The position numbers were made by a program, and so were the translations under genes. Of a stretch of 61,275 nt of DNA, positions 8,876 to 39,300 are shown one piece after another. The notes beneath the pieces were generated by a model. That model did not search any database. It saw only the letters and a list, made by a program, of their open reading frames with translations, and was not told the DNA's origin. This stretch comes from a virus (Duplodnaviria > Caudoviricetes). The stretch is taken from IMG/VR virus record IMGVR_UViG_3300027769_000034, positions 1 through 61,275 of that record; one strand, given 5' to 3'. The number at the start of each line of letters is the position of its first letter. Position 1 is the first letter of the stretch.

Positions 8876-9041
8876 CTTCGTAGAAGCAAGCTTTTACTTT
8901 GTAGTGCGTAGGCATCTTAGAGCCAGCCTTTACAGCTGCCTGAAGTTGCTTAACGGCCTCCATTAAGTCCATAGACTTGATTTCTACCTCGGCTCCAGAC
9001 TCTTCCATCTTACCGCCGCCGTTGTACTTTTTCGCTTTCAT
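8865..9041 (-). CDS. Small protein, MKAKK type
   Basis: MKAKKYNGGGK...; TATTTTTG box 4 nt before the ATG. Confidence 0.7.
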   Translation of the reverse strand: MKAKKYNGGGKMEESGAEVEIKSMDLMEAVKQLQAAVKAGSKMPTHYKVKACFYEDEE

Positions 9042-9072
9042 ACAACAAAAATAAAAAAATTTTGCATTGCCT

Positions 9073-9104
9073 CTTGACAAGGCCTCCACGATGTCGTATA
9101 CTTG
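9073..9104 (+). promoter_or_regulatory. Promoter for 9131 gene
   Basis: cTTG(ACA)-20 nt-TATACTTG, close to the -33/-7 consensus. Confidence 0.55.
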
Positions 9105-9130
9105 TATCAGAAACTAACGACTTACTAACA

Positions 9131-9502
9131 ATGAAGAACATCATCCTAACCATCGCAAGCGTCCTCGCCTTCACGGCACAGGCTCAAGAAAACTTCAAGT
9201 CAAACATTGAGTTCTACGGACACCAGTACAAGAGAGTAGAATACACCGGCAACTTTGCCAAGTGGGTAATCGACGAGGAAAAGAGCTGGTATCTGGCTCC
9301 TGACAGTACCACTAGTCAGCTGATGACGGTCCAAGAGTGGGAAGTGTCTCGCCGGGCGCTAAAGGCAAACGGATTCAACGAGATTGACCCGAAGTACTAC
9401 TGGAACCCAAATACTAAAACAGTAGTTATGCTGGTGGCCGGCCGCCACGAGCGAACAGGGTTACTCCACGTGTCTACTGAATACGGAACGGATATCCGAT
9501 AA
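9131..9502 (+). CDS. Secreted/periplasmic protein (moron-like)
   Basis: Signal peptide MKNIILTIASVLAFTAQA|Q; own promoter and terminator; opposite strand to neighbours. Confidence 0.75.
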   Translation: MKNIILTIASVLAFTAQAQENFKSNIEFYGHQYKRVEYTGNFAKWVIDEEKSWYLAPDSTTSQLMTVQEWEVSRRALKANGFNEIDPKYYWNPNTKTVVMLVAGRHERTGLLHVSTEYGTDIR

Positions 9503-9536
9503 AAAGAGAGAGGGGCCTGAGCCCCTCTTTTTTTTT
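9503..9536. terminator. Intrinsic terminator, probably bidirectional
   Basis: A-tract, AGAGGGGC-ctga-GCCCCTCT, T-tract between convergent genes. Confidence 0.85.
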
Positions 9537-10074
9537 ACACCTTCTTGGTTGGTTGCTCTGAGCGGTAGAGCGCTACCGCTGATTGTCTAGCAGCGTCGTA
9601 CACTCCGTACTCCTTTGCCTTCTTGATTGCCAGTTCGTAGTTGTTGTCCAATACGTTGGCATTTCCTTGTCCGAGGATTTTCTTTCCTTCGCCTTGGTCA
9701 ACCATAGAAACACCACGTTGGTCAAGAGCCTTAACAGCCTCCTGCCAGGTAAGCATCTCGAGGTACTCCTTAGGAGTCATAGCTCCTTTGGCTCCAGTCT
9801 CCTTCGGTGAACGGCCTTTGCCAACCCAGCTGTCATCCTTACCAGGAACAACTCCACCTTCGGCGTACTTCTTTCTTTGGATAACCTTGTAGCCCTTGCG
9901 CTTGAGCTCAGCATCAAACTGCTTCAAAGCGTCCGGGTCGTACTTCTTGATGGCGTTGCGCTCAGCAGTCTTCGAATCAAGGAAGTTCTGCTTGGCGATT
10001 TCCATATCGCTCATCTTCTTTCTGGGGTCCGGGGTGATGGGGCCTCCGTTCTTATAAAGCTTCTTTGCTTTCAT
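9535..10074 (-). CDS. Basic protein, MKAKK type with Y-x-x-GG motifs
   Basis: MKAKKLYKNGG and internal KKYAEGG. Confidence 0.75.
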   Translation of the reverse strand: MKAKKLYKNGGPITPDPRKKMSDMEIAKQNFLDSKTAERNAIKKYDPDALKQFDAELKRKGYKVIQRKKYAEGGVVPGKDDSWVGKGRSPKETGAKGAMTPKEYLEMLTWQEAVKALDQRGVSMVDQGEGKKILGQGNANVLDNNYELAIKKAKEYGVYDAARQSAVALYRSEQPTKKV

Positions 10075-10158
10075 CTTGTTTGTTTTGTTCAGGCTCTATT
10101 TCCTTCAACATCTGTTCGATGATGATTTGATAGTCTATCCTTTGTTTTCCAAAATTAA

Positions 10159-10623
10159 TCACTTAAACGGTACGTATTTCGTGGTGTTACCGTCTTTGAT
10201 TGCTTTGAGAATCTGTTTGCGGTTTGCACCCTTGCGGTATCCTACGTGTACCCAGTCAGGATTCTTGCTTGAACCAAACTCCCAGATGAGCTGGTCGAAC
10301 TCCAAGTTATCCTTGATGAAGTTGAATACGTCAGCATTCGTTACTCCGTTACCGTGACCGTCCTGGTCTAGGTCAAGAGCACGTCCGTTGTTATGGTCCG
10401 AAGTTGAGCTACCACCGATAGCCTTATTCAGGGCCGCAGAGCGGTAACCACTAGAGATAAAGATGGGCACACCGAAGTGCTCACGTACTTTATCAAACAC
10501 CTCAACAGCGATAACCTTAAGGTTCTCCAGATGCTCAGGGGTAGGATTGTTGTCAATTCCTCTTCTTTTGGCGGTGTCACTCCGTGTCACTTCGGCCAAC
10601 GATACGTAGTTGCTTAGTTTCAT
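10159..10623 (-). CDS. Endolysin, peptidase M15A family
   Basis: SSGYRS...IGG...SDH..GRALD...WVHV Zn-peptidase motifs; TACTTTTG box 4 nt before ATG 10623. Confidence 0.85.
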   Translation of the reverse strand: MKLSNYVSLAEVTRSDTAKRRGIDNNPTPEHLENLKVIAVEVFDKVREHFGVPIFISSGYRSAALNKAIGGSSTSDHNNGRALDLDQDGHGNGVTNADVFNFIKDNLEFDQLIWEFGSSKNPDWVHVGYRKGANRKQILKAIKDGNTTKYVPFK

Positions 10624-10665
10624 ACGGCAAAAGTAAAAAGTATCTTTGTACGCAAAATTCAATAT

Positions 10666-11181
10666 ATGCCGAGTTACAAGAAGAAGCCTACCCGTAGCGA
10701 GAAGCTACGTATGATGGAAAAAGTCCAGGCCAAGCGCATAGACGACTACAGAGTACACAAGCACCTGAAGGCTGACCCATACAACATCCTCAAGCTACTC
10801 AACCACGTTCTTATAGACGCCAAGCATAATTACAATATAGATACAAGAGAGCTGTGCTTCCTGCTGTTCATCTACGACCTAGAGATGTTCTCCCTTGAAT
10901 ACATACTGCCTACATTCGGGTACACAGGCCGACAGGACAACTTTGTAGACATAACACTGTACCCACTCATCCAAGGAGGATACGTACGCAAGTACTCCCC
11001 GGCACAGGACACGGACCTACCAATCATAATGGCTAGAAACAACAAACAGACTACTAGGTACTGCATCACCGTATCTGGACGCAAGCTAGTGAAGCGATAC
11101 CTTGACAAGCTGCACGGCAGAGAGAGCATCTTGGTCGACGAAAAGACCCACTTCAGAATGTTCCTTCTCGGAGAGGAGTGA
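10666..11181 (+). CDS. Putative winged-helix DNA-binding protein
   Basis: ELCFLLFIY...PLIQGGYV...YCITVSGRKLV MarR-like pattern; TATCTTTG box at 10641. Confidence 0.55.
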   Translation: MPSYKKKPTRSEKLRMMEKVQAKRIDDYRVHKHLKADPYNILKLLNHVLIDAKHNYNIDTRELCFLLFIYDLEMFSLEYILPTFGYTGRQDNFVDITLYPLIQGGYVRKYSPAQDTDLPIIMARNNKQTTRYCITVSGRKLVKRYLDKLHGRESILVDEKTHFRMFLLGEE

Positions 11182-11263
11182 TGTTAATAGATTCTTCCTA
11201 TCAGAATACACAGATACAGCATAGAATGAATCTGTTCACCCGTGCTATGATAGGTTTTAACTA

Positions 11264-11295
11264 TTTGACTTTGTCATTTTTTTGCCGTAACTTCG
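11264..11295 (+). promoter_or_regulatory. Promoter for candidate RNA 1
   Basis: TTTG-20 nt-TAACTTCG. Confidence 0.5.
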
Positions 11296-11296
11296 C

Positions 11297-11463
11297 AGAG
11301 AGCGAAAGCAGGGCGAGCAGAAGCTAAGCGAGCCCGTACCACTCAGGATGCTTGAAGAACGAAACGAAAGCACCGCTTCAGGGCGTCGGGAAAGCGGGCG
11401 CACAACGCCCCGCTGAAGGAGACGACCGACACTCGCTTCGGTAACGCAGAATGCTCTTCTCTC
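11297..11463 (+). ncRNA. Candidate structured RNA 1 (~165 nt)
   Basis: No ORF; nested stems (AGAGC/GCTCT, GGGC/GCCC, TGCTT/AAGCA, CTTCAG/CTGAAG, GGGCGT/ACGCCC, ACCGA/TCGGT) and several GAAA motifs. Confidence 0.5.
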
Positions 11464-12080
11464 AGTTACTCCGTGTTAACGAGGGCAACTATACCCAAAG
11501 CATAACCAGCACCCACTATTGCTAAACTCCTGCAACACAACTCAGTTGCAACAGACTTACGCTTGATTTTTGGGGTGAGTTATATAGATGGTGGGGAGAA
11601 TCGCGCTCTACAGCCGTATCCAACCCCAACCCGAAACGGAATGCCGAACCCAAGCCCCCTCGGTGCAATCGATTGGTTTCAAACGATTTGGCTTTTTGTA
11701 TCGTGTACCTAGTATGGTAACTATTCTAGCGCCGCATTAGACTCAGGACGGAATGCTAACCGGTAGGCAAAAGCATCCTATAATATATATTATGTTAATT
11801 ACAACTTTTAGGAGCCTCTACCCTACCCTGCTCCTGATTGGAATCGGACGTTGGCTCGAGTCCTAAAGACGTATCCAACAACCCCCACAAACTCCCACAT
11901 TACCCCACACTTCAGCCTCATCCCTGACACCTTCCCCAACCTTTGCTCGACAGGAGCGAAGCGACAGGTATATAATAATAATGACGCACGTAAGAGTCGT
12001 GCTGATTAAACTAGATTGAAAATTTTTCTCGGTGATTATCAACGAGTTAAGAGCCTAAATCAAAAAAAGTTTTACAAACA

Positions 12081-12113
12081 CTTGACATCGCTATCCCGAT
12101 TATCGTACGTTTG
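12081..12113 (+). promoter_or_regulatory. Early promoter
   Basis: cTTG(ACA)-21 nt-TACGTTTG with upstream A/T tracts. Confidence 0.75.
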
Positions 12114-12117
12114 CAAT

Positions 12118-12577
12118 GTCACCGACCGACAGCGCCCACCGAGATAGGGAAACGAGTCAGAGTCACCTCGAGGACGAAGCCGCAAGGCGGGCCGAGGAAG
12201 ATGGTAAGCGAGAAGCGTGCCTTGGGGCTGACCCCATAACCATAGTGACCACCGACCTTACGGCCTTTGGCTGTGGTTGCGCTGAATGACTCTTAGGTAC
12301 TTTGATACACGACGAGCGGTAGTGACCACGGCTGAGCGTCAGGGTTTCGAATGTGGTGGAGCGCCTTGGCGCATTGGTTCTGAGAACATAGACTACGCTA
12401 GACGCCTAGACGATTAGATGCTGTTTGGTTCGGTGCCTCTGCCGCCGACAACCCGCTAGAGATTGCGACCAAGGGACGCGTCTCACATTAGCCCACGATA
12501 GGATACCGGCAGAGTGATGGTTCGATTGGGGGCGGCACACTTCAGGTGTCGCGGGTTCGTGACCCACCGCCCTCTCA
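12118..12577 (+). ncRNA. Candidate large structured RNA 2 (~460 nt) with tRNA-like 3' end
   Basis: No ORF; long-range stems 12120-33/12420-35, 12159-65/12287-93, 12315-23/12392-99, 12437-44/12507-14; GNRA hairpin; acceptor stem plus T-arm at 12528-12577. Confidence 0.7.
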
Positions 12578-12608
12578 AACACTATTCATCCACTAAACAC
12601 TAAACACG

Positions 12609-12812
12609 ATGATTTTTATTCCTGCTAAACAATCAGACTACAACCGGCTTGCGTTCACATCACGTAAGTCAGTATCAAAGCGTTCTACCGGCTCGAACTT
12701 CGTTGCCCGTGAGCGTGATATCCTGCTCGGCACTACCCGTGCTGTAGTAAATGCTGTTAACCAACTCACCGCTGAGTACTCCAATACTCGTTTGGTGTAC
12801 GTCTGCAAGTAA
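12609..12812 (+). CDS. Early hypothetical protein
   Basis: ORF preceded by TAAACAC motif. Confidence 0.65.
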   Translation: MIFIPAKQSDYNRLAFTSRKSVSKRSTGSNFVARERDILLGTTRAVVNAVNQLTAEYSNTRLVYVCK

Positions 12813-12836
12813 TCAACCTTAAAACCATTAAACACT

Positions 12837-13031
12837 ATGAAAATCTATAATTTCTTTTATCGAATCCAAGAGAACGGAACGACGATAGAAAAACCATTTT
12901 GTGACGTTAGCGGTCAGTTCGAACCGACCGAAACCATCCAACACGAAGTACTAGAAGACCTCCTTAAGCAGGGCGTCATTACGGCATTCGGATGGACCAC
13001 TACGCTTCCATACTCAACTTCAAATAACTAA
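12837..13031 (+). CDS. Early hypothetical protein
   Basis: TAAACACT-ATG start context. Confidence 0.65.
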   Translation: MKIYNFFYRIQENGTTIEKPFCDVSGQFEPTETIQHEVLEDLLKQGVITAFGWTTTLPYSTSNN

Positions 13032-13035
13032 TAAT

Positions 13036-13236
13036 ATGGACCAAGTATCTCAAATCATTGCCTACGAGTCAGGAGAACTCACTGACCAAGAAATCGTGTA
13101 CCTGTTCGCTGACCTAGTTAAATCAGGTATGGCGTGGAGCCTGCAAGGGCACTACGGACGCACTGCTCACCTGTTAATCAGGGAGGGCTACATCGACTTC
13201 GAGGGCAATGTTTCTTTGGCCGCTCTAGAACTTTAA
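13036..13236 (+). CDS. Conserved small phage protein
   Basis: IIAYESGEL...LV.SG.AWSLQGHYGR motif familiar from phage early regions. Confidence 0.75.
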   Translation: MDQVSQIIAYESGELTDQEIVYLFADLVKSGMAWSLQGHYGRTAHLLIREGYIDFEGNVSLAALEL

Positions 13237-13270
13237 CCAACCACTAATTCACTTTTTAAATCTAAACATT

Positions 13271-13843
13271 ATGGAAACTGCAATCAATTACAGCAACGGA
13301 GACCGAGTAATATATAAACCCGGAGAAGGTCACCTACCGGTAAAGGGCGGCGTAGGAAAAAAGGCTACTATCGTCGATGTCGAGAACGGACTCATTCAGT
13401 TCGACAAAAATGTCGGAGGACACGAGGGCTCGGCCGGACTTCCTAGTGGAACGGGATGGTATGTCAACCTTGAGAGGGACGTGGTGCCTGTCAAGCGTGG
13501 GCGTCCAATTAAGAAAGAGGCCGATAAGTATGACGAGGTTCTCTCTGAAATTGCTAAGTCACTAAAGGCGCTTGAGCAAGTAGATATCGACGAGTTAGTT
13601 GCTGAAATCAAAGCACGTTCTGAATCTCGAAAAGTGAAATCTGAGGCTGAACAATACTTCGACTTCGGAGACTCTCACGAATTAGGGATGTCGACGTGTG
13701 AGGGTCCGCTGTACATCCGATACGGCCTTGCTGACCCGTACTTCGAGGGTCGTGAGTTAGGCTTCAATACCGCCGACTACGAGATTCGTATCAACGACCT
13801 TGTGATTCCTACAGGTGCTGTGCTCAGAGCAAAGAAGAAGTAA
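13271..13843 (+). CDS. Early hypothetical protein (SH3-like N-terminus)
   Basis: GDRVIY...ATIVDV pattern; TAAACATT-ATG start context. Confidence 0.7.
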   Translation: METAINYSNGDRVIYKPGEGHLPVKGGVGKKATIVDVENGLIQFDKNVGGHEGSAGLPSGTGWYVNLERDVVPVKRGRPIKKEADKYDEVLSEIAKSLKALEQVDIDELVAEIKARSESRKVKSEAEQYFDFGDSHELGMSTCEGPLYIRYGLADPYFEGRELGFNTADYEIRINDLVIPTGAVLRAKKK

Positions 13844-13852
13844 TCTTCGGTG

Positions 13853-13894
13853 GGTGTGAATGGTTTATGCGGGTTCGATTCCCGCCACACCGCA
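13853..13894 (+). ncRNA. tRNA-like minihelix (acceptor stem + T-arm)
   Basis: GGTGTG...GCGGG-TTCGATT-CCCGC-CACACC; no D or anticodon arm. Confidence 0.6.
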
Positions 13895-13919
13895 ATGTTC
13901 AATTAATTAACTAAACACT

Positions 13920-14321
13920 ATGAAACAGGAAATCAATAAGGTACTAGTTGCCTACGGCGAATACATTAAGGCTGTATCGGCTTTCAGGGATGCTACTGAC
14001 GAGAGCGTACGTAGCAAACTCATCGACTTCTCCATCATCGAGCAGGCCACTGCTGACCTTGGCGAGCAGATACTAGGAGCCAATAAGACCATCGAAGAGC
14101 ACGAGGTTCGTGAGAAGCGAACTAAGGAATATCAAAACTCCTACGGCGTGTTCATCATCGCCGACAGGCTTCAGTACTTCAAGAGCGACTATGACCTTGA
14201 CGAACTATGGGATGAGGCTGTTGAATTATACCTTCAGTTCCTTGACAGCGAGTTCAACGTCTCCACCAAAAGCGAGATGGACTGCATCACCGATTTTTTA
14301 GAACATAACGAATTACTCTAA
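13920..14321 (+). CDS. Early hypothetical protein
   Basis: TAAACACT-ATG start context. Confidence 0.7.
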   Translation: MKQEINKVLVAYGEYIKAVSAFRDATDESVRSKLIDFSIIEQATADLGEQILGANKTIEEHEVREKRTKEYQNSYGVFIIADRLQYFKSDYDLDELWDEAVELYLQFLDSEFNVSTKSEMDCITDFLEHNELL

Positions 14322-14890
14322 TGGAAATTACCTGCTTCGAATGCTCAGGGACTATCAACGAGTCCACTGACTTCTACACCTTTAATATTATAGGTGAGAC
14401 TATCTGCGATTCCTGCGAGCGAAGCCATTGGGAAGGCGCAGTACGTGTGATGCACTACGACCCAAAGTCAGAAGACTTAATTGGTTACCTGCACTGCTAC
14501 TCACTAGGTCAAACCCGTACGTCGGAAGACTTCGAAGAGTGCGATACTCCTGCGCCAATTGACTACGTTCAATGGAAAGCAACCGACGCGTGGCGCGGCT
14601 ACGCGGACGTTCAGTACAAAGACAACTTCGAAGTGGTAGCCAACGGGTGGGCCACAGGTAACTACGACGACGTCAAGTGGAAGTGGGACTTCAATGAGTT
14701 CTACGAAAACATTCAAGATGGAACGCTAGTCCCTCCCGTAGACGTGTGGTTTGTATTCGCTCAGACGAGTAATGTATTCTCTACTGCTGTAGACATCGTC
14801 GTTCACAATCATCAAGCGGCGACGTTCCTGAATTGGCTTGCCGATGAAGCAGGAATGACCCGCAATGAACTCTTGGATGCCTTGAGTTAA
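14321..14890 (+). CDS. Hypothetical protein with N-terminal Zn finger
   Basis: CxxC...CxxC; TDAWRGY motif. Confidence 0.75.
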   Translation: MEITCFECSGTINESTDFYTFNIIGETICDSCERSHWEGAVRVMHYDPKSEDLIGYLHCYSLGQTRTSEDFEECDTPAPIDYVQWKATDAWRGYADVQYKDNFEVVANGWATGNYDDVKWKWDFNEFYENIQDGTLVPPVDVWFVFAQTSNVFSTAVDIVVHNHQAATFLNWLADEAGMTRNELLDALS

Positions 14891-14960
14891 AGAAACCCTC
14901 CGTGCAGGGGATGTGTTTAGTGTTTGGTACTAGGGTGGCACGGCACCCTTTTCCTTTTTT
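14891..14960 (+). terminator. Terminator preceded by a hairpin and an exposed GTGTTTAGTGTTT segment (sRNA-like)
   Basis: CCCT/AGGG hairpin, single-stranded 14911-14931, AGGGTG/CACCCT stem plus T-rich tail. Confidence 0.6.
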
Positions 14961-14969
14961 CTTAAAACT

Positions 14970-15125
14970 ATGCCATACATCGTTTCATTCAACCCCGACA
15001 CACTCCGGTACGACATCTACGACGTACAAAAGTGTAGAGTAATGGCCTCCTACTTCGATAGGGACCAAGCCTTTAACGACGCCAAAAAACGTGAAACATT
15101 TAGAATCAATAAAAAACAATTATGA
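14970..15125 (+). CDS. Small hypothetical protein (51 aa)
   Basis: Manual translation MPYIVSFNPD...; ATGA-coupled to next ORF. Confidence 0.55.
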   Translation: MPYIVSFNPDTLRYDIYDVQKCRVMASYFDRDQAFNDAKKRETFRINKKQL

Positions 15126-15247
15126 AAGACGAACACATTAAGTACTTAGTACTCCGTATTCAAGCCCTTACCGACTACAATAAGAAGTTGGAGGAAAAAA
15201 TAAAACAACTAGAGTCAAATCAAGCCGATGGCAAACTATTGCAATAA
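15122..15247 (+). CDS. Small coiled-coil protein (41 aa)
   Basis: Manual translation MKDEHIKYLVLRIQAL... Confidence 0.5.
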   Translation: MKDEHIKYLVLRIQALTDYNKKLEEKIKQLESNQADGKLLQ

Positions 15248-15737
15248 CTTCGTCAAGTTCAAGTCGTCAAACAACGACGTCTTCGAGCAAATTAAAAAAG
15301 ACATCGAGCGCTACACAAAAGTTCTCTTTTGGGACGTAGAGTTTGACCAACAGGAGGACAATGTGCTGTTCGCTCAGGGCCCTACAAAATGGGTTCCACC
15401 TCACGAACTCCTGACGGAACTAAGTAAAAAGTACGATGTATCAATACACAATGAATACGATGAAATTCAAGGAAACTTTGCAGGACACACTTATTATGAA
15501 TGCGGAACTAAGTTCGACTTTAGTCTTCCATTCTACGAATACTTTTTCTACAATAACCCTGATGAGTTCCAATACCACCTTTCAAACTTTATTCTTTCGA
15601 TGCGGCACAACTCAGACTTCGACTATGCCGTAGACCTTTTAACTATGGGATGGGTTAACACCCCTGACTCAGACACCCTCAACTACATTAAGGAAGTATA
15701 CACTAAAACCCAATCACTAATCTCTAAATCAATTTAA
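15228..15737 (+). CDS. Ferredoxin-like-fold phage protein (DUF1281/YubB-like)
   Basis: MANYCNN...TKWVPP...LSKKY...YDE...FAG pattern. Confidence 0.55.
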   Translation: MANYCNNFVKFKSSNNDVFEQIKKDIERYTKVLFWDVEFDQQEDNVLFAQGPTKWVPPHELLTELSKKYDVSIHNEYDEIQGNFAGHTYYECGTKFDFSLPFYEYFFYNNPDEFQYHLSNFILSMRHNSDFDYAVDLLTMGWVNTPDSDTLNYIKEVYTKTQSLISKSI

Positions 15738-15739
15738 AA

Positions 15740-16642
15740 ATGGAAATCAATCAATTCGGTCAACTCGTTGACACCCACAACTCGCTCGTTTCTGCCAAGG
15801 CTACTGCCCAAATGCTAGACTCTTTCGGTCTCAATTGGATAGTCGAAAAGCAACCACTACTTCTCCCATCAGGGACGGAATCAGGTTATTTCGGAGTGGT
15901 ACGAAAGGACACTGAGACAGTGTTCACTACTGCCACCTCTCAGTATGAGGTCTTTCAGAACGAAGAACTGGCAGAACTAGTACAGGAGGTTGCTCAGACA
16001 CTCGGCTCAAGCATCGCTCGAGGCGGCCTGTTCAACGACGGCGGTAAGGTATACCTTCAAATCCCTATGGAAGACAAGGTTATCGGTACCGACCTAGTAA
16101 AGCGCTACGCCACAGCAATCAACAGCCACGACGGAACTACTGCTCTTCGTTGGGGTGCGTCAAGCGTTACTATCTCTTGCAAAAACTCCTTCAATGCTGC
16201 GGCAAAGGACCTAAAGGATAGCGTCCGCCACACGGCAAATATGCGCCGCGCCGTAGAAGAATCTCTTCGTGCCATCCAAGGTATCAACGACGCTGACGCT
16301 ACGCTCTACGAGGTGTTCCGACGTATGGCTGACAAGCAAGTACGACAGCCTGACATTCAGCGTGTAGTAGATGCTGTTGTAGGTGTAGATATCCTCAAGT
16401 CTGCCAAGACTGCACGTGACGAGTACTCTACTCGACGCCTGAACCAAGCGCAGGACCTGAGTGTGTCAATCGCTAAAGAGATGTCTTACAAGGGCGATAA
16501 CCTTTGGGGACTATTCTCAGGTGTGACCCACTACACTACGCACAAAGCCGGTCGCGAAGGCAGCCGCGAGGTGTCTAAGATGACGGGCTCTCTGCAGAAG
16601 ACTGACCAACGTGTGTTCAATATTCTAGCAGAACTAGTATAA
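15740..16642 (+). CDS. DUF932 family protein
   Basis: GLNWIVEK, YEVFQN, NSHDGT, CKNS, LWGLFSGVTHY motifs. Confidence 0.85.
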   Translation: MEINQFGQLVDTHNSLVSAKATAQMLDSFGLNWIVEKQPLLLPSGTESGYFGVVRKDTETVFTTATSQYEVFQNEELAELVQEVAQTLGSSIARGGLFNDGGKVYLQIPMEDKVIGTDLVKRYATAINSHDGTTALRWGASSVTISCKNSFNAAAKDLKDSVRHTANMRRAVEESLRAIQGINDADATLYEVFRRMADKQVRQPDIQRVVDAVVGVDILKSAKTARDEYSTRRLNQAQDLSVSIAKEMSYKGDNLWGLFSGVTHYTTHKAGREGSREVSKMTGSLQKTDQRVFNILAELV

Positions 16643-16670
16643 GAGGTGGGGCTTCGGCCCCATCTTTTTT
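16643..16670 (+). terminator. Intrinsic terminator
   Basis: GGTGGGGC-TTCG-GCCCCATC plus T-tract. Confidence 0.85.
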
Positions 16671-16688
16671 CTTAATTTTAAGAAAACT

Positions 16689-17030
16689 ATGTATATGATA
16701 CTTTCTGAGAATGATTTCACATCTATGGTGTTTCGGTTTGCTTTCGAGCATAACGGTGCACATAGAGAATTCGACGTACAACCTGAGGGCAGGTGGCAGG
16801 TCGAATGCGCTACTGACAATGACGGACAAGAGTACATTTTGGTCATTGAACTAGACCTAAACGACCACGTCAATGCGTACGTCGAGGCCATTACCTTGAC
16901 TGACTTTCTTATCGCCGATGAGGCAGTAGGAGAAGAAATGTTCTCAGACTATGTATTCAGTAAAGTATGTGGTCTAGAAGATGGCACGCTAAGTTTAATC
17001 TTAAGTAAACCGAATGAGAAATCTGATTAA
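16689..17030 (+). CDS. Hypothetical acidic protein
   Basis: ORF with A-rich start context. Confidence 0.65.
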   Translation: MYMILSENDFTSMVFRFAFEHNGAHREFDVQPEGRWQVECATDNDGQEYILVIELDLNDHVNAYVEAITLTDFLIADEAVGEEMFSDYVFSKVCGLEDGTLSLILSKPNEKSD

Positions 17031-18890: not shown

Positions 18891-18967
18891 GCTCTCGTAG
18901 CTCAATTGGATAGAGCAACGCACTTCTAATGCGTAGGTTACAGGTTCGATTCCTGTCGGGAGTACCA
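18891..18967 (+). tRNA. tRNA-Arg (anticodon TCT)
   Basis: Full cloverleaf GCTCTCG/CGGGAGT, ACGCA-CTTCTAA-TGCGT, ACAGG-TTCGATT-CCTGT, encoded CCA. Confidence 0.96.
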
Positions 18968-32954: not shown

Positions 32955-33376
32955 TACTTAAATCGATATAAGAACATCATTATAACTAGAGCCGAGGCTA
33001 AAAACAAAAGTAAGTAATTCTTGACCTTACCAGTTTTGCTCTCCGGCTGAACGAGCTGCGGGGGGCATTCAACAGATACCTGCTTAGCAACCGGTCTTTC
33101 CTTCACCTCTGTCTTTACGATAAGGCGGTCCTGGAATTTAGTAATAACAATTCTTACGGTGTCATTGTCAATAACCGAGGAGTCCTCAGCAGATGGGATA
33201 GATACCGTATCAATCAGCGTTATTGGCGGAATCACTATCGTGTCCCATTTCGTAACAACCGTGGGCCTCAGGATAGATGGGTCTTTCTTGACTGCCTGAT
33301 TCAAGTGCCAGCTCGCGCTGCAGCTTGCTAAGAACCCAATTAGTGATAGGGTTGAGATGGATTTCCATATGTTCAT
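32954..33376 (-). CDS. Lipoprotein with C-terminal TM helix (spanin candidate)
   Basis: Lipobox FLASC; C-terminal YLLLFLASALVIMMFLY. Confidence 0.65.
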   Translation of the reverse strand: MNIWKSISTLSLIGFLASCSASWHLNQAVKKDPSILRPTVVTKWDTIVIPPITLIDTVSIPSAEDSSVIDNDTVRIVITKFQDRLIVKTEVKERPVAKQVSVECPPQLVQPESKTGKVKNYLLLFLASALVIMMFLYRFK

Positions 33377-36300
33377 TCTTTGATTCTGTTTTGTTGTTTT
33401 GCTACTTCTTTGTAGTTGTAAAGGAGTTGTTTCCATTCTCCGTTCTTAGAGATATCCTTGTAGAGATATTCTAACTCGTATGCCTTGTCCTCATCCGGAT
33501 AAGACTGGTACCAATCCTGAGCAATAAGCTCTTTCATACGTTTAGTGCGCTCTTCTGCCAGGGCTCTAATCATATCATTAACCTCTTCATTAGTAAATGT
33601 GTATTCGATACCAGTCTCCTCGTCTTTGAACTTGCGAGAGTCTAGCTCACGAGGGTATCCTGGAATGACTCTAGTGTCCTGTCCAAGAGTTTCGTAGAGT
33701 CTGAATACCTCTTGCTTGTGCGGTTCGTAGATTCTCTTCTGGTATTTGACCGGGTCAAACAGGTGGAACAGAACAGGGTTGGCGCCTTGCGGAGTCTGCT
33801 CGATTCCTTCACCCCAGATGTTGTAGCGGACTGGTACGTCGTCGGTAGAGAACGTACGGTCCTTGATTACGTTAGTCAAGCTATTGTACAGGCTGTTCTT
33901 GTCGTATAGGTCCGGAAGCTTAGTTCTAGTAGTTCTGTTCAGGGCGCTGAGTGAGTTAGGCAACACAGCAGCACTAGTGGTTCTGAACAAGCTAGTCAGA
34001 ATGTAGTCTGGGTTGATTTCACCTTGCGTGGTGAGCAACTCAAGAATCTGGTTCGTGTTGGCAAGGAACGACTGCTGAGCCATAAACTGGAATGAAGACA
34101 TCGTAGTTCCAAGCATCTCGCTCAGGTATAGAGTAGCCATCTCGCTGTACGCCTCGGCCTCCTCGGCTACTGATGTAGGCTTGACTTCTTTGTTTGCCCA
34201 GTAAGAAGCTCTAGCTCCGATGATTGCTCCGATAGGTCCTGCCTTAGAGTAATCAATGAATACATCTTCTTCTACGTTCAGGGTAGCGTCCTCACCTTTT
34301 AGCTTACGCATAAGGGCTGACACGTTGATGCTATTGTATGGGAACTGAGCGTAGAACAGCTCACGCTCTTTCTTCTCGTCGTCTCCAATACCGGCAGTAG
34401 CAAGTCCATTCTTAATCAAGAAGTCCGCTACAGCGTAGATAGAGAATCCTACAGCACTCTTTGCGAGAAGCGTAGAGAAGTCGTCGTATCTGCGATTTTT
34501 AGCTGCGATTACAGCTCTACCGATAGCAACAGGAGGGGCTACGTAGTTAAGCGTATCGTAGATAATGTTAGACGGAGTCTTAGAGAACGGAACGATAATG
34601 GTAGTCAAGAACGAACCTAAGCGAGTCTTCGACAGCTGAGACAGGATAGTCTGAACAGCAATTGAGAATGAAGTATCTGCCTGGTAGGTAATCTCACGAC
34701 CCGCCTCACGACCAGCCTTGATTGTAACAGGGTCCGGATGCTTTACGAAGTTGTCAAGAGCCTCACCCTTAAGACCAAGCTTCTTACCTCTTCTGTAAAT
34801 CTCAACGCCTTCTGCGAATCTAGCAAACGGTCGGTCACCAAGAGTAAGCAGTCTGAACATAACCTCGGGAGCGATTCCAAAAGTGCCCTCAGTTATCTTC
34901 TTGAGTCTGTCTGAAATAGCGATGCTTCCGTCTTGAAGTCTAGCTAGCTGGTCTCCTTTGATTACTTCTTTGCCGGCAGCCTTATTGATTGCTGCTGCAA
35001 TTTTAGTATCGCTGAATGCTGCAACAATAGCCTGAAGCGGAATGAAGCCTTGACGAGACTCGTATTGGAATGTCTCTTCGGTTGGTCTCGTACCCTTGAA
35101 GATGTACTCAACAGCCTCGGGAACGCCCATAAATGCAGCCCTCTTGACGCCGAAAATGAATGCTCCGACGCTAGGTGTAATCTCTCTGTTTTTTCCTGAC
35201 GTGAAAGCTCTCACGAAGTCGATAACAGATGCTACTGGAGCCACGAGGAATTGTCTCGTTGCTACGTTCGCAAGGTTGGCGAATACGTTTACAGATTGAG
35301 AAATTGGAGTAAGAAGGTTACCCTTTACTAGAGCTCCGAAGATATCCATCGTAGCCTTAGGGATGGCCGTCATAATAAAGTCATCAAGATTCTTTGTAGC
35401 AGCCTTGAGTTCTTTCTCTTTGTTCTTAATCTGTTGGTCAAGCTCTTTGCTCGGACTATGCATTGCCGTGTACATAAGAGTATTGGCCTCCGTCTGAAGA
35501 TTGAACAGCTTAACAGCAAGGTCATTAAGTTTAACCATCTGAGATTCCGTCAGTCTTCTTCCGGCACGCTGAGCCATAACGACTACAGTCTGAACAATTC
35601 CAAGGTGGGTCGAGTTCTTAATCTCACCGAAGTGGCGTAGCATACGGCCCACTGTCGTTCCCATCTTAGACATACGCTCAATCATATCAAGAAGCTTAGC
35701 CTCATCTCCTTCGGCTGAGTACCTCTTGATAAGTTCTGCCCCCAATAGAACAGTCACGTTATCTTCGTCGTACAAGTCTACTTTGATGCTTGCGCTGAGC
35801 TCGTTTACCTTGTCGGTAGTCATCTCGTTGAGAAGCTCAGGAACAGTCATAAGAGCTAGGCGTCCTTGAATATCCTCAAGCTTCTGTGGCGTGTAGTAGT
35901 TGTTCGGGTTCTCAATGATGTCAGCGTAAAGCTTGATGTTTGAATCAGCCATACGCTCAGCAAACTGACGAATCTTATTCTTTGGAGCTTCAAATTCTGG
36001 AGCTTCAACAGAAATTGAGAAATCTACACGCTGTTCCTCACCAGCTTTTACGCTTAGGATTCTGCGGCGGATTTCTTCTGCGCTAGCTTTTGTATTGTCT
36101 CGGCCAATGAGGCTAGCTCGCTGTCCGACAGATACTGCAATACGTTCTCCACGTTCGGTTGCTCTTCTTGCATTTTCGATTTGTTCATTATTTATTCCTC
36201 GTTTTAAAGCGAGTCCGATAGCAGCGTTCTCGTAGTCAGGCTGTTCGTTGTCGCTAGTTTCTGTTGCTCCGAAGTCCTCATCGCGTCCCTCTTGGAAGGT

Positions 36301-39300
36301 CTGGTATAGAGCCTTTTCAGGGTACCAGTTAACAGCTTGGAGGTCAGCAATAGTAATGTTGATTCCGTACTTTTCCTTGAGTTCTTTCTGAACTTCGTTG
36401 AACACATCAATGATGAATGAGCGCTGATTACCACCACTTGGTGCTTCAACTTCACCAGACAAGTTCTTTGAGTAGTTGTTTCCGGCAAGACGTACCTCGT
36501 TGAGCTCCTTGGTAGCTGAAATCTCAGCACGCTTGTCAGCGTCGATAGACGCCTTATTAATTGCGTTAGCCTTCTCCTCAAGGGTCATCTTACCGAAGCC
36601 CGGAATAACCTTACCCAAAACAGCCTTATCCTTAGTGCTAAGAGTGCTGATTGCATTCTTAAGGCGAGTCTTTCCTGCTGCTAGCTTGGCTGGGTCACGC
36701 TTGATAAGTGTTCCAGTTAGACGGCCAAACTGACGCATAAACCAACGGTCCATAGTCAGCTGGTCGAACTCTCCGTTGAGATTCATATAGAACCCGTTTC
36801 CAATCTTAGGACCGAAGATAGCAGCTCCGTATACCTCAGTGTCTACAGTGAATCCGCTGAGAAGGCTTTCAGACTTGCCATTCTTGATATACTTCAGGTC
36901 TCCGGCACGGAACTTAGAAGTCAAGAACGAAGAGAACTCATCCATCGACATACGCTCAAGGACGGTGTTAACCATCTTAAACGTAGACTTAATCCCAGCG
37001 CTCTGCGTTCCGATAGACGTGTTGCTGTCGAACTTACCGTTCTTCTTGTAGTACTCGTACTGGCGGTCAGCCTCTTCGAAGTTTGCAGCTACCTTGTTAC
37101 CGTTAGACGTGATAGCAAGAGCAATCTTAAATGCGTCAGCAGCATTCTTGTCCGTGTTAAGCTCCGGATGAATGAGAGCCATAATCTCCATTGCAGCACG
37201 AGTCTTGTAGTCGTACCATCCTAGAGCGTCAGGGTAAGCCTCGATAGCTACAAGTGTCTCGTAGGTATATGCGTCAACTAAGTAACGCTTCAGGCCTTCG
37301 TCAATAGCTTTCTTGCCGCGGCCACCTACTTCGAATGACGTGATTCCGTACTTCTTCTTAAGCTCCTTTTCGTACATCTTAAAGCGCTTCTGAAGCTCCT
37401 CTTTGAAGATGATTTTGTTTGGGAAGCTAGAAGCAGCAGCGAAGGAAACAGCATTATTAATGGTGTTGAGACCTTCAGTCACTTCAGCAGGAATGTTGTC
37501 AAAGTTGGTGATGGCAAAGCTTACATCAGCGTTGTTCACCGTCTTATTAATCATATCCTCGTAGATAGCTGTTGTCTCTGGCATACTACGGAATACGTAC
37601 GGGATAGGAATGACGTTTTCGTCATCTTGCGTTACTCCGACAGGGAAGTAGTTACCGAACAGACGCTGAGCGAACATACGGTATACTCCACGACGAAGCT
37701 CACCATCGCTACGCTTAGCAGTGTCTGCTTCAAGAGGGGTAAACGAAATTGTACGTACGTCACGCTCAGGGAACATACGACCGATGGCTTTGATTACCTC
37801 CGGCATAACAGACAGTGCTGCCCCAGGGTCTTTTAGATTATATCCAGTTGTATTTGAGTGGAATGATACATTAACATCTCCATCAAGGAACATACCGTTT
37901 ACAGTGTACGTATCATTCAGTTTTGGGATAAACACTTCTACTCTGGAGGTAGCAAGGCCCTCAGTGCCTTTGATTTTGATTCGCTCTACCCTAGTGTTAC
38001 TTCGTAAATCACTAATAAAATTAGAAGCTATCTTAGCATATGCCCTGTAATCGATGAGGTTAGAGTCGAATGCATTGTATAGCGAAGCATTTTCGACCTG
38101 TTGGAAATTAAGCTGAGACAGAGTTGTGCGAACCTTGTAGTCTGGAGATAGATTAGTACGTTTTAACGATACGGTCTTATTGCCAACAAGAAACTCTAAT
38201 TCTGACATACTTTTTGGGAGTCTGTCAAGGTTTCTCATAGATGGGTATACATTATTGACATCAAATGACTTATCGCTACTGCGTAAGATGAAGTCAGTTA
38301 TCAAAGATGATATCGCACCTAATCCCATACTTGCCTCCTCTAAGGTTGTCCTTGAATCGCGACTTTTGTCATCAAGCCTATCACTGATATACGAAACAAC
38401 AAAAAACCCGCCGCTGTCGCCTGGGTCACTCCAGTAGTCAATAAATCCATTTACTACATTTAAGAAGATATCCAGTTCCCTTTCAGCAGTGTATACCATT
38501 AAGTTGCTGGCTGTTAATCCAGTACTAGCTATATATTCCTCCGCTTCTTTCTTTGTGTTAGCTAAGATGTCCTTTAGCTCTTCTAATTTCTCGTTTACTA
38601 GTCTTTTTGATTCCTCTAAAGATTCAATATCGGAAGGGAATTCTGAAATGTCCCACGCAAGATATGGGGTACGAAGGATTCTATAGAAAGTAAACGAATC
38701 AAAATCGTCAGGGTCTACGTTGGCTCTTGCTTCTAGCGCTATGCCTATTAATGACTTATCTGGAGCGTCTAACTCAACAACAGCTGAGAGTAAATCATTA
38801 GCGAATGACTTGTTAATAGCATATGGACTATATTGTGGAGATACGTCGAGCAGAACCTCACTATCTTCATATACGGTCGAAATAAGGTCATTTAATTCAT
38901 TTAGGCCAATCTGAAGAGCTGTTGGAGTTGCGCCAAGCTGTCCGCCGCGTAAGTACTCAGACTTTATGCGCTTAGCTACTTCGGTTCCTGCGTAGATTTC
39001 ACGGGCCGGGTTGACAAGCAACTCCATAACTCCGTCCATCTTGGTGCTAGGGAAGATGTCAGTGATATCGATACCGATAGCCTCACCGATAAGCTTCTTG
39101 TTGCTATCCCAGTTCTTACGAAGAGCCTCGAAGTCTGTTTCGTTGGTCTTGAAGAACTCGACCATCTTGTTGTCAAGGACGTTGCGGATAGCCAAGCGCT
39201 TGATGAAGTCTTCATATCCTCCCAAGAACTCTTGCTTGGTCTGCCTGTCACGGAGCTCAGCTTGGTACTTGTTCGTTACTTCTTTAATCTCAGTCTCAAC

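What the first reader, a model, noticed from the sequence alone, without database searches (positions are those of the whole stretch)
12081..12577. Large, ornate candidate ncRNA at the head of the early region, ending in a tRNA-like element
Seen: a near-consensus promoter (cTTG-21 nt-TACGTTTG) is followed by ~460 GC-rich nt with no ORF. The stems are mutually compatible and nested: closing helix 12120-33/12420-35, AGAGTCA/TGACTCT (12159/12287), CCTCG/CGAGG, GCC-GCAA-GGC, ATGGT/ACCAT, TGGGG/CCCCA, GTGACCAC/GTGGTTGC, AGCGGTAGT/ACTACGCT and GCGCC/GGCGC. A second domain (CTCTGCCG/CGGCAGAG) and an acceptor+T-arm element (12528-12577) follow. Known: phages carry large structured RNAs of unknown function (GOLLD, ROOL). 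Inference: this is a phage RNA made very early in infection, possibly of an undescribed class (decoy, anti-defence or scaffold). I could not match it to RNase P, tmRNA or an intron.
Basis: partly seen in the sequence, partly recalled or inferred. Interest (0 to 1): 0.85.

Follow-up and report, generated by a model that had tools for sequence, protein, structure and literature searches.

The report
New structured phage RNA, tRNA-like end
A freshwater phage of Flavobacteria-type hosts starts its early operon with a conserved, heavily folded non-coding RNA of about 410 bases that matches no described RNA family and appears to be cut free at a miniature tRNA look-alike.

Summary
A Bacteroidota-type promoter (TTG-N21-TACGTTTG, 12082-12113) is followed by a conserved non-coding stretch. 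This stretch occurs in 7 distinct contigs, the window included, forming three clades. It holds about 410 nt of RNA body (about 12117-12527) and a 47-nt tRNA-like minihelix (TLS, 12528-12574), 34 nt before the first early ORF.

Indels break every reading frame. The consensus fold has 138 pairs, 35 of them with compensatory changes, against 18.9±2.7 in shuffles and 3-5 in slid controls.

Rfam 15 (4227 models) gives no hit, and ARAGORN finds no tRNA or tmRNA there.

Two metatranscriptome runs from two studies each hold one 395-nt contig (12127-12521 and 12130-12524). Both lie between the predicted start and the TLS.

In related phages the same first gene is preceded either by a TLS or by a hammerhead ribozyme. 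I therefore read the TLS as a cleavage signal, probably for RNase P, that releases a stable leader RNA. The function of the RNA body is unknown.

The minimum free energy is no better than shuffled sequence (z = -0.36).

The parts
12082..12113 (+). Promoter of Bacteroidota type: TTG(ACA) 12082-12087, 21-nt spacer, TACGTTTG 12106-12113. Predicted start about 12116-12120.
   Evidence: All 7 homologues keep CTTGAC-N-TA[CG][GT][TA]TTG followed by xxxTGTCACC. Relatives without the RNA keep the same block and run straight into ORFs. The consensus TTTG/TAnnTTTG is recalled, not from a call.
12117..12527 (+). Body of the non-coding RNA, about 410 nt and three domains. The ends are inferred.
   Evidence: Seven-sequence alignment A4. 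138 consensus pairs, 35 with compensatory change. 134 G-U cells against 15 A-C cells place it on the + strand. RNA-library contigs cover 12127-12521 and 12130-12524.
12118..12249 (+). 5' domain: helix GUCAC/GUGAC (12118-12122 with 12245-12249) closing four hairpins. Nearly invariant.
   Evidence: Alignment A5 has 94% mean column identity. CCTCG/CGAGG covaries to CUGCG/CGCAG, and TGGGG/CCCCA has U-A to A-U in L171. Most other pairs never vary, so the fold of this domain is only weakly tested.
12250..12435 (+). Central domain closed by the long-range helix 12250-12256 with 12429-12435. It holds two multi-hairpin arms, including the GCGC-CUUG-GCGC hairpin.
   Evidence: Helices 9-17. Helix 9 is 95.8% paired and reads CACCGAC/..., CACUGAG/CUCGGUG and CACUAAG/CUUAGUG in the three clades.
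12437..12514 (+). Third domain: a long hairpin closed by CTCTGCCG/CGGCAGAG.
   Evidence: 7 of 8 closing pairs change on both sides.
12528..12574 (+). tRNA-like minihelix (TLS1). 8-bp acceptor-like stem 12528-12535 with 12567-12574 (G2-U wobble). 4-bp hairpin 12537-12540 with 12546-12549. 4-bp T-like stem 12552-12555 with 12563-12566 (C-A mismatch). 7-nt loop TTCGTGA. No D arm and no anticodon arm.
   Evidence: Compensatory changes: ACAC/GUGU to GCAC/GUGC to GCAA/UUGC; T-stem G-C to A-U to U-A; eighth acceptor pair G-C to U-A. Model R1 finds analogous elements at the same position in other leader types: L181 at 28.5 bits (E 1.5e-6) and L083 at 18.6 bits. Not called by ARAGORN or the Rfam tRNA model.
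12575..12812 (+). 34-nt nearly G-free leader (12575-12608) and the first early ORF (12609-12812, 67 aa, MIFIPAKQ...).
   Evidence: Homologues of this ORF are preceded by a TLS or by a hammerhead in other contigs.
13852..13892 (+). Second tRNA-like minihelix (TLS2): GGUGUG/CACACC stem, GCGGG-UUCGAUU-CCCGC T arm. It lies between ORF 13271-13843 and ORF 13920-14321, 27 nt before the ATG at 13920.
   Evidence: It matches only the two ends of the Rfam tmRNA model: 18.9 bits, gathering score 47, E 0.0012. Kept in L172.

Best explanation
The host RNA polymerase starts at the Bacteroidota-type promoter (12082-12113). It first transcribes a structured non-coding RNA of about 410 nt in three domains, then a 47-nt tRNA-like minihelix, then the early genes.

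The minihelix is a 12-bp acceptor/T-like stack with a T-like loop. I think the host's tRNA 5'-processing enzyme RNase P cuts between 12527 and 12528. That cut would release the folded RNA as a stable, abundant molecule. A further cut at the 3' side of the minihelix would leave the early mRNA with a short, G-poor, unstructured leader.

I think the released RNA then acts in trans on a host component. The nearly invariant 5' domain would be the binding surface, serving host takeover or counter-defence.

Shown: conservation, covariation, lack of coding, presence in RNA libraries, and positional equivalence of the minihelix with hammerhead ribozymes. Inferred: the exact ends, RNase P as the enzyme, the timing, and the trans function.
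For: 1. Seven distinct contigs in three clades carry it, always between the same promoter and the first ORF.
2. Indels of 4, 3 and 1 nt and no three-base periodicity rule out coding. The 5' domain is 94% identical, while the adjacent 67-aa protein is 68% identical between the same clades.
3. Covariation: 94.1% of 952 cells are paired. 35 pairs change on both sides, against 18.9±2.7 in 500 shuffles (0 of 500 reach it) and 3-5 in six slid controls.
4. Strand: 134 G-U cells against 15 A-C cells.
5. RNA libraries X19 (study P10) and X20 (study P11) each hold one contig whose whole length is 395 nt. The contigs are 100% identical to the window at 12127-12521 and 12130-12524. They have no loose end, while the DNA contigs of X7 and X8 continue through both places. 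By the tool's own standard this is a weak hint for the ends.
6. The first helix (12118) starts 5 nt after the -7 box.
7. The same first ORF is preceded by a TLS in the window, L172, L083, L086, L179/L180 and L181. It is preceded by a canonical hammerhead (GGUUAA-CUGAnGAG-...-CGAAAC-...-GUC-UUAACC, then about 20-28 nt, then AUG) in L082, L173 and L171, and by a hammerhead-type core in L084/L085.
8. Hammerhead cores number 78 on the early strand against 3 on the other strand in 588 kb of relatives. Cleavage between early genes is therefore the rule in this phage group.
9. Minihelices of this form: 40 strict hits in 1.27 Mb of loci against 2 after shuffling. ARAGORN of them as tRNAs.
Against: - The MFE is no better than shuffles: z = -0.36 on the + strand and +0.39 on the - strand.
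- The consensus structure was derived from the same 7 sequences on which it was counted. These amount to three clades, so the covariation counts are inflated by relatedness.
- Most of the 5' domain never varies, so its fold is untested.
- Contigs cannot give exact RNA ends or the strand. Both RNA contigs have exactly the same length (395 nt) with a 3-nt offset, which I cannot explain.
- The T-like loop UUCGUGA has U where tRNAs have A58 (recalled numbering), and the stem has a C-A mismatch.
- No RNase P cleavage has been seen.
- Nothing bears on a trans function. Most close relatives lack the RNA: nhmmer found it in 4 of 165 loci, and in 3 of the 80 endolysin-anchored loci. It is therefore dispensable.
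Confidence: 0.55

Rival explanations
1. It is a purely cis-acting leader. The folded 5' segment controls or protects the early transcript, for example through 5'-end stability, pausing, or coupling of transcription to DNA entry. The 395-nt species in RNA libraries is only a stable by-product of cutting at the minihelix.
For: It always sits between the first promoter and the first ORF. Other related phages have leaders of different sequence and size, about 165 to 590 nt, at the same place, all ending in a TLS. Relatives do without it.
Against: A by-product would not need a 94% invariant 132-nt domain that is more conserved than the neighbouring proteins. The RNA is separated from the mRNA by a dedicated cleavage module.
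Confidence: 0.25
2. It is a self-assembling RNA-only particle of the ROOL/GOLLD kind: a multimeric cage or scaffold made by phages next to tRNA-type elements.
For: It is large, multi-domain, phage-encoded, lake-derived, abundant in RNA libraries and directly joined to a tRNA-like element. ROOL and GOLLD are phage or prophage RNAs, often near tRNA islands, that form nanocages (passages of bioRxiv 10.1101/2024.12.08.627333).
Against: There is no hit to the Rfam GOLLD or ROOL models even at E up to 10 on the region or E up to 1 on the whole window. At about 410 nt it is smaller than the 659-nt ROOL and the GOLLD RNAs of more than 800 nt in that paper. I did not test for self-complementary loops that could make intermolecular contacts.
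Confidence: 0.1
3. It is a ribozyme. Either it is a self-cleaving RNA that makes its own 3' end at about 12525, or it is an RNase-P-like catalyst for the adjacent minihelix.
For: The RNA contigs end 4-7 nt before the minihelix. Relatives use self-cleaving hammerheads at equivalent sites. A very conserved core suits catalysis.
Against: There is no match to any ribozyme or RNase P model in Rfam 15. There is no hammerhead core in the region. A minihelix is a sufficient substrate for the host enzyme (recalled).
Confidence: 0.05
4. It is not an RNA gene at all. It could be a decayed or antisense protein gene, or a DNA-level element such as an origin, a packaging site or a genome end.
For: Minus-strand ORFs of 91-97 aa exist in 5 of 7 homologues. 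The region lies beside an 840-nt conserved non-coding stretch between the late and early gene blocks.
Against: The minus-strand ORF is broken in the window and in L171 and is frame-shifted in L172. Its protein identity (62% between L082 and L100) is below the 84% mean DNA identity of the alignment. tblastx against 80 relatives gives nothing better than E 0.65. G-U pairs mark the + strand. Compensatory changes and RNA-library contigs fit an RNA.
Confidence: 0.03

Closest known systems
GOLLD and ROOL (large ornate RNAs of phages and prophages)
   Same: Large, multi-domain, phage-encoded, of unknown function, found in environmental and lake samples, abundant, and physically next to tRNA-type elements (for the known classes; here).
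   Different: No similarity to either Rfam model. Smaller, at about 410 nt. It sits at the very head of the early operon behind a host-type promoter. Its partner is a 47-nt minihelix, not a true tRNA. Oligomerisation has not been examined.
MALAT1/mascRNA and MEN-beta 3'-end formation in mammals (recalled, no call)
   Same: A long non-coding RNA gets its mature 3' end when RNase P cuts at the 5' side of a downstream tRNA-like structure.
   Different: Those are eukaryotic and nuclear. Here the cut would also free a downstream mRNA, and cleavage has not been shown.
Hammerhead ribozymes flanking genes in phage and prophage transcripts (Perreault et al. 2011, PMC3088659; passages read)
   Same: A cis RNA element between genes of a long phage transcript cuts it into gene-length mRNAs. 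In relatives of this phage, hammerheads stand exactly where the window has its minihelix.
   Different: The window has no hammerhead. Its element depends on a host enzyme rather than on self-cleavage.
tRNA-like domain of tmRNA
   Same: An acceptor stem plus a T arm, with no anticodon arm. TLS2 (13852-13892) aligns to both ends of the tmRNA model.
   Different: The score is 18.9 bits against a gathering score of 47. There is no tag reading frame, no pseudoknots and no G3-U70 pair. TLS1 gives no tmRNA hit at all.
T7 early leader and RNase III sites; T4 tRNA-cluster stable RNAs 'species 1 and 2' (recalled, no call)
   Same: A host-RNAP early transcript of a podophage is cut by a host RNase between genes. 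Stable phage RNAs of unknown function are co-processed with tRNAs by RNase P.
   Different: The enzyme or context differs, there is no sequence relation, and the T7 leader is not known to be a conserved folded RNA.
Bacterial Y-RNA-like YrlA, which has a tRNA-like domain (PMC4201824; search listing only)
   Same: A non-coding RNA that combines a tRNA mimic with another structured module. Some are phage-encoded.
   Different: There is no Rfam hit and no Ro/Rsr gene seen nearby. The module order and size differ.

Membership tests
tRNA (Rfam RF00005 / ARAGORN) | Cloverleaf with D arm, anticodon arm with 7-nt loop, T arm and acceptor stem | tested here: not met
   ARAGORN finds nothing in 11901-12700, even at -ps85. 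cmscan gives no tRNA hit at E up to 10. The element has only an acceptor stem, one 4-bp hairpin and a T-like arm.
tmRNA | tRNA-like domain plus tag reading frame and pseudoknots, 5' and 3' ends pairing | tested here: not met
   No tmRNA from ARAGORN. There is no Rfam hit on 12117-12574. Only TLS2 matches the model's two ends, at 18.9 bits against 47.
RNase P RNA / group I or II introns / known self-cleaving ribozymes | Match to the family covariance model; for introns, an interrupted gene and joined exons | tested here: not met
   Among 4227 Rfam models, the only hit on 11700-12900 at E up to 10 is a chance microRNA match. No joint was seen in the RNA or DNA contigs at this place (table 5). 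No gene is interrupted.
GOLLD / ROOL | Match to RF01998 / RF03087 consensus sequence and structure | tested here: not met
   on the window. on relatives and homologues. The accession numbers are recalled.
RNase P substrate (minihelix type) | Coaxial acceptor plus T stem of about 12 bp with a T-type loop; cleavage at the 5' side of the first acceptor pair | tested here: inconclusive
   The 8+4 bp stack and the UUCGUGA loop are present and covary. The RNA contigs end 4-7 nt upstream. Cleavage itself cannot be tested with these tools.
Bacteroidota sigma-A promoter | TTTG/TTG near -33 and TAnnTTTG near -7 (recalled consensus) | tested here: met
   TTG-N21-TACGTTTG is present. It is kept in 7 of 7 homologues: 4 exact and 3 with TAGTATTG. 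The motif is not enriched in the window overall, 44 against 42.8 expected, so the sequence match alone is weak. The nearest cultured phages infect Flavobacterium, Cellulophaga, Tenacibaculum and Maribacter.
Protein-coding gene | Frame kept among homologues; protein more conserved than DNA | tested here: not met
   Frame-breaking indels. The longest + strand ORFs are 27-59 aa and are not shared. The minus-strand ORF is broken in 2 of 7.

The most novel reading that the evidence does not exclude
This is the founding member of a new class of large structured phage RNAs. They are the first molecule made from the incoming genome of a widespread group of freshwater Flavobacteriia podophages. They are matured by host RNase P at a built-in miniature tRNA mimic and act in trans on a host machine, by takeover or counter-defence. 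The different leader RNAs of sister phages (types B, C and D, all ending in the same kind of mimic) would be fast-evolving versions of the same device. These phages would then punctuate their early transcripts interchangeably with tRNA mimics and hammerhead ribozymes.
Probability: 0.3. Interest if true: 0.9.

Novelty: new variant of a known kind. Interest (0 to 1): 0.78.

Why it matters
Only a handful of large folded RNAs of phages are known, and none has a known function. This one offers a clear transcription unit, a defined release mechanism that can be tested in a test tube, and evidence of abundance in nature. It also has natural 'swap' experiments, in which sister phages carry other leader RNAs, none at all, or a hammerhead in place of the tRNA mimic.

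If RNase P makes the 3' end, this would be a bacterial and phage counterpart of the MALAT1/mascRNA mechanism. It would also be a second, host-dependent way, beside ribozymes, in which phages cut early operons into single-gene messages in hosts that do not use Shine-Dalgarno sequences.

Tried and rejected
**Searches that found nothing**
- blastn of 12081-12600 and of 9000-16900 against 50,697 phage records gave no match.
- An exact 47-nt TLS pattern found 0 in viral contigs.
- Two conserved core patterns found only the same 3 viral contigs and 0 of about 185,000 species genomes.
- The 190-aa ORF 13271-13843 has no relatives in viral contigs.
- tblastx of the region against 80 relatives gave nothing better than E 0.65.

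**Links between leader types**
- Model R2 (5' domain) did not find the other leader types. The best hit was L083 2555-2658 at 9.6 bits, E 0.22. Homology between types A, B, C and D is therefore not shown.
- The only shared strings are short ones, such as an exact 20-mer between the window (12358-12377) and L179.

**Other phages**
- The Elemovirus record NC_055854 has no leader RNA and no TLS. It does have hammerhead-type cores on its early strand.

**Weak hits set aside**
- A sub-threshold PreQ1 hit on L086 2954-3001 (29.2 bits against 39) covers the T-like hairpin plus the A-rich leader. I take it as chance.
- Reading the small TLS hairpin as an anticodon arm gives inconsistent 'anticodons' (UCA, UCC, UCG, UUA) across homologues, so I rejected it.

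**RNA-library cover**
- In RNA runs X19 and X20 no contig was laid on 11900-12104 or 12556-13100.
- The equal length (395 nt) of the two RNA contigs is unexplained.

- The supplements of PMC10690425 list 8,495 candidate structured RNAs from IMG/VR. They could already contain this family. 'Not described' therefore rests on Rfam 15 and on paper searches.
- Structure prediction, complex prediction and the protein-database searches were not used.
Full report
**Context.** The window is a complete 61,275-nt virus record.
- Late and structural genes are on the minus strand: terminase, portal, a virion protein and a 3298-aa ORF.
- A block of small early ORFs and replication genes is on the plus strand from about 12.6 kb.
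- A virion protein finds only phages of Flavobacterium, Cellulophaga, Tenacibaculum and Maribacter, at 34% identity for the best record and under 60% for all 87.
- Start codons lack Shine-Dalgarno sequences and are preceded by G-poor leaders. The host is therefore very probably a member of the Flavobacteriia.
It lies at 12082-12113.

**Nearest relatives lack the stretch.** Anchoring on the 66-aa ORF 13036-13236 gave 80 loci. In the closest ones (L002-L007) only a 68-nt block upstream of the promoter (window 12019-12084) is alike. The promoter there runs within about 35 nt into ORFs. The roughly 490-nt stretch is therefore an accessory insert between the promoter and the first gene.

**Homologues.**
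- Anchoring on the endolysin and on the first ORF, followed by blastn and nhmmer, found the stretch in L082=L096, L100 and L101.
- A conserved two-block pattern found it in three more metagenome contigs, L171, L172 and L173.
- That makes seven distinct contigs, the window included, in three clades.
- It was not found in about 185,000 species genomes by two exact patterns.

**It is not coding.**
- In the alignment the first roughly 135 nt are almost invariant, at 94% column identity, with no third-position pattern.
- Indels of 4, 3 and 1 nt break every frame.
- Plus-strand ORFs are 27-59 aa and are not shared.
- A minus-strand ORF of 91-97 aa is present in 5 of 7. It is broken in the window and in L171 and shifted in L172. 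Its protein identity (62%) is lower than the 84% mean DNA identity of the alignment.

**Structure.**
- RNAalifold on the seven sequences gives 138 pairs, 35 of them with compensatory change.
- Counted with controls: 94.1% of 952 cells are paired, against 87.1% in shuffles (0 of 500 reach it) and 38-41% when partners are slid.
- 35 pairs change on both sides, against 18.9±2.7 in shuffles (0 of 500) and 3-5 when slid.
- Caveat: the structure was derived from these same sequences, which form only three clades.
- G-U pairs (134 cells) far outnumber A-C (15 cells), so the plus strand is the RNA.
- The architecture is a chain of four parts:
  - a 5' domain closed by GUCAC/GUGAC (12118-12122 with 12245-12249) holding four hairpins;
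  - a central domain closed by 12250-12256 with 12429-12435;
  - a long hairpin, 12437-12514;
  - the minihelix, 12528-12574.
One (ATGGT/ACCAT) is invariant and undecided. Three fail, among them the 'closing helix'.
- The single-sequence MFE is not better than shuffles, z = -0.36.

**Not a known family.**
- cmscan against Rfam 15 (4227 models) finds only the true tRNA-Arg at 18891 at gathering scores.
- At E up to 10 on 11700-12900 it finds one chance microRNA match. On the whole window at E up to 1 it finds nothing in the region.
- Relatives and homologues give no hit on the RNA either.
- ARAGORN finds no tRNA or tmRNA even with relaxed thresholds.
- Four paper searches found no description.
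- A 2023 screen of IMG/VR that lists 8,495 candidate RNAs in its supplements (PMC10690425; passages read) may include it. I could not check.

**Expression.**
- Twenty of the 24 listed run rows, from 11 studies and mostly fresh water, hold the stretch or part of it. Six of those rows may be the source sample.
- Two of them are metatranscriptomes from different studies. Each holds one contig whose entire length is 395 nt. The contigs are identical to the window at 12127-12521 (word depth 53) and 12130-12524 (word depth 20), with no loose ends. DNA contigs of two other runs continue through both borders.
- The tool rates such coincident stops as a weak hint, and contigs give neither strand nor exact ends.
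- The borders lie 9-12 nt inside the predicted start and 4-7 nt before the first base of the minihelix. That is what a discrete RNA running from the promoter to a cut at 12527/12528 would give.

**The minihelix is a module.**
- Its stems covary. The small hairpin reads ACAC/GUGU, GCAC/GUGC or GCAA/UUGC. One T-stem pair reads G-C, A-U or U-A. The eighth acceptor pair reads G-C or U-A.
- Homologues of the 67-aa first ORF in other contigs are preceded by leaders with little or no detectable similarity to this one: L083/L086, L084/L085, and L179/L180 with L181/L182, of about 165-590 nt.
- Each of these leaders begins after a TAnnTTTG-like box and ends in an element of the same form with quite different acceptor sequences.
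- A strict scan for such minihelices gives 40 hits in 1.27 Mb of loci against 2 after shuffling. ARAGORN of them as tRNAs.
- The window has a second one at 13852-13892, 27 nt before the ATG of ORF 13920. It is kept in L172 and aligns with the two ends of the tmRNA model at a sub-threshold score.

**Hammerheads as positional equivalents.**
- Near-threshold Rfam hammerhead hits in L171 and L173 led to a motif scan.
- The core CUGAnGA...CGAAA occurs 78 times on the early strand and 3 times on the other strand in 588 kb of relatives, in 36 of 80 loci.
- The printed examples from L006, L082 and L171 (8 of 9) share the form GGUUAA-CUGAnGAG-stem-CGAAAC-stem-GUC-UUAACC. About 20-28 G-poor nucleotides and an AUG follow.
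- The 67-aa ORF that follows the minihelix in the window follows a hammerhead in L082, L173 and L171, and a hammerhead-type core in L084/L085.
- Hammerheads that cut long phage transcripts into gene-length mRNAs were proposed before (PMC3088659; passages read).
- The window has no hammerhead and uses minihelices at two sites instead.
- This equivalence is my main reason to read the minihelix as a cleavage signal. RNase P is the obvious enzyme for a 12-bp acceptor/T stack, from recalled knowledge of minihelix substrates.

**Function of the RNA body.** Nothing here tests it.
- Pointing towards a trans-acting molecule that binds something specific:
  - the extreme conservation of the 5' domain, higher than that of the adjacent proteins (68% for the 67-aa ORF, 87-88% for the endolysin);
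  - its release from the mRNA;
  - its abundance in RNA libraries;
  - its patchy, accessory distribution at the head of the early region.
- I favour a host-directed takeover or counter-defence role but hold it loosely.
- The rivals are a purely cis leader, a self-assembling particle like ROOL/GOLLD, or a ribozyme.

**Verdict.** This is a real, expressed, covarying large RNA of a family absent from Rfam 15, with a plausible and testable maturation mechanism. I rate the novelty as a new variant of a known kind (large structured phage RNAs; tRNA-like punctuation) and the interest as 0.78.

Noticed in passing
L002-L081 and others (e.g. L006 2401, 2829; L082 2942, 3825, 4854; L171 969, 1435, 1812); L183 16332-16355 and 18103-18126 (minus): Hammerhead-ribozyme cores punctuate the early operons of this phage group: 78 on the early strand against 3 on the other in 588 kb. 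The printed examples are each followed by about 20-28 G-poor nt and an ATG. The cultured Flavobacterium Elemovirus also has two such cores on its early strand. The window itself has none.
   Followed up: partly
window 13852-13892: A second tRNA-like minihelix lies between two early ORFs. It aligns with the 5' and 3' ends of the Rfam tmRNA model as if the middle 328 positions were deleted (18.9 bits, gathering score 47). It is kept in L172.
   Followed up: partly
L083 2489-2973, L086 2419-2981, L084 2326-2548, L179 1887-2465, L181 1853-2447: Sister phages carry other large leader RNAs of about 165-590 nt at the same place, each ending in a minihelix. L083 and L086 are related to each other (nhmmer E about 1e-16). 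Types A, B and D share only short strings such as GAGAUAGGnAACGAG and an exact 20-mer GGAGCGCCTTGGCGCATTGG.
   Followed up: partly
window 11248-12019: About 800 nt of further non-coding DNA lie between the late and early blocks. It is about 71% identical in L082 and includes a C-rich run of CCCACA-like repeats (about 11880-11945) and a sigma-70-like TCGACA-18-TATAAT at 11947-11976. It may hold the genome ends or a packaging site.
   Followed up: no
L053/L055 5613-5659 and 6276-6325; L086 5065-5105; L083 5031-5089; L021/L026/L084/L085 5496-5586 (or 5644-5734): Further miniature or odd tRNA-like elements of 41-91 nt, none called by ARAGORN, lie inside the early regions of relatives. Two of them give 17-nt matches to the 3' end of the tmRNA model.
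   Followed up: no
L086 2954-3001: A sub-threshold PreQ1-I riboswitch hit (29.2 bits, gathering score 39) covers the T-like hairpin and the A-rich leader before the first ORF. It is probably chance.
   Followed up: no
window 12127-12524 (runs X19, X20): The two RNA-library contigs have exactly the same length (395 nt) but are offset by 3 nt at both ends. I have no explanation.
   Followed up: no
window 33373-43269 (minus): The 3298-aa ORF matches no PHROG at E 1e-5. The Elemovirus record has a comparable 3694-aa 'structural protein'. Whether it contains a virion RNA polymerase like that of N4 was not tested.
   Followed up: no
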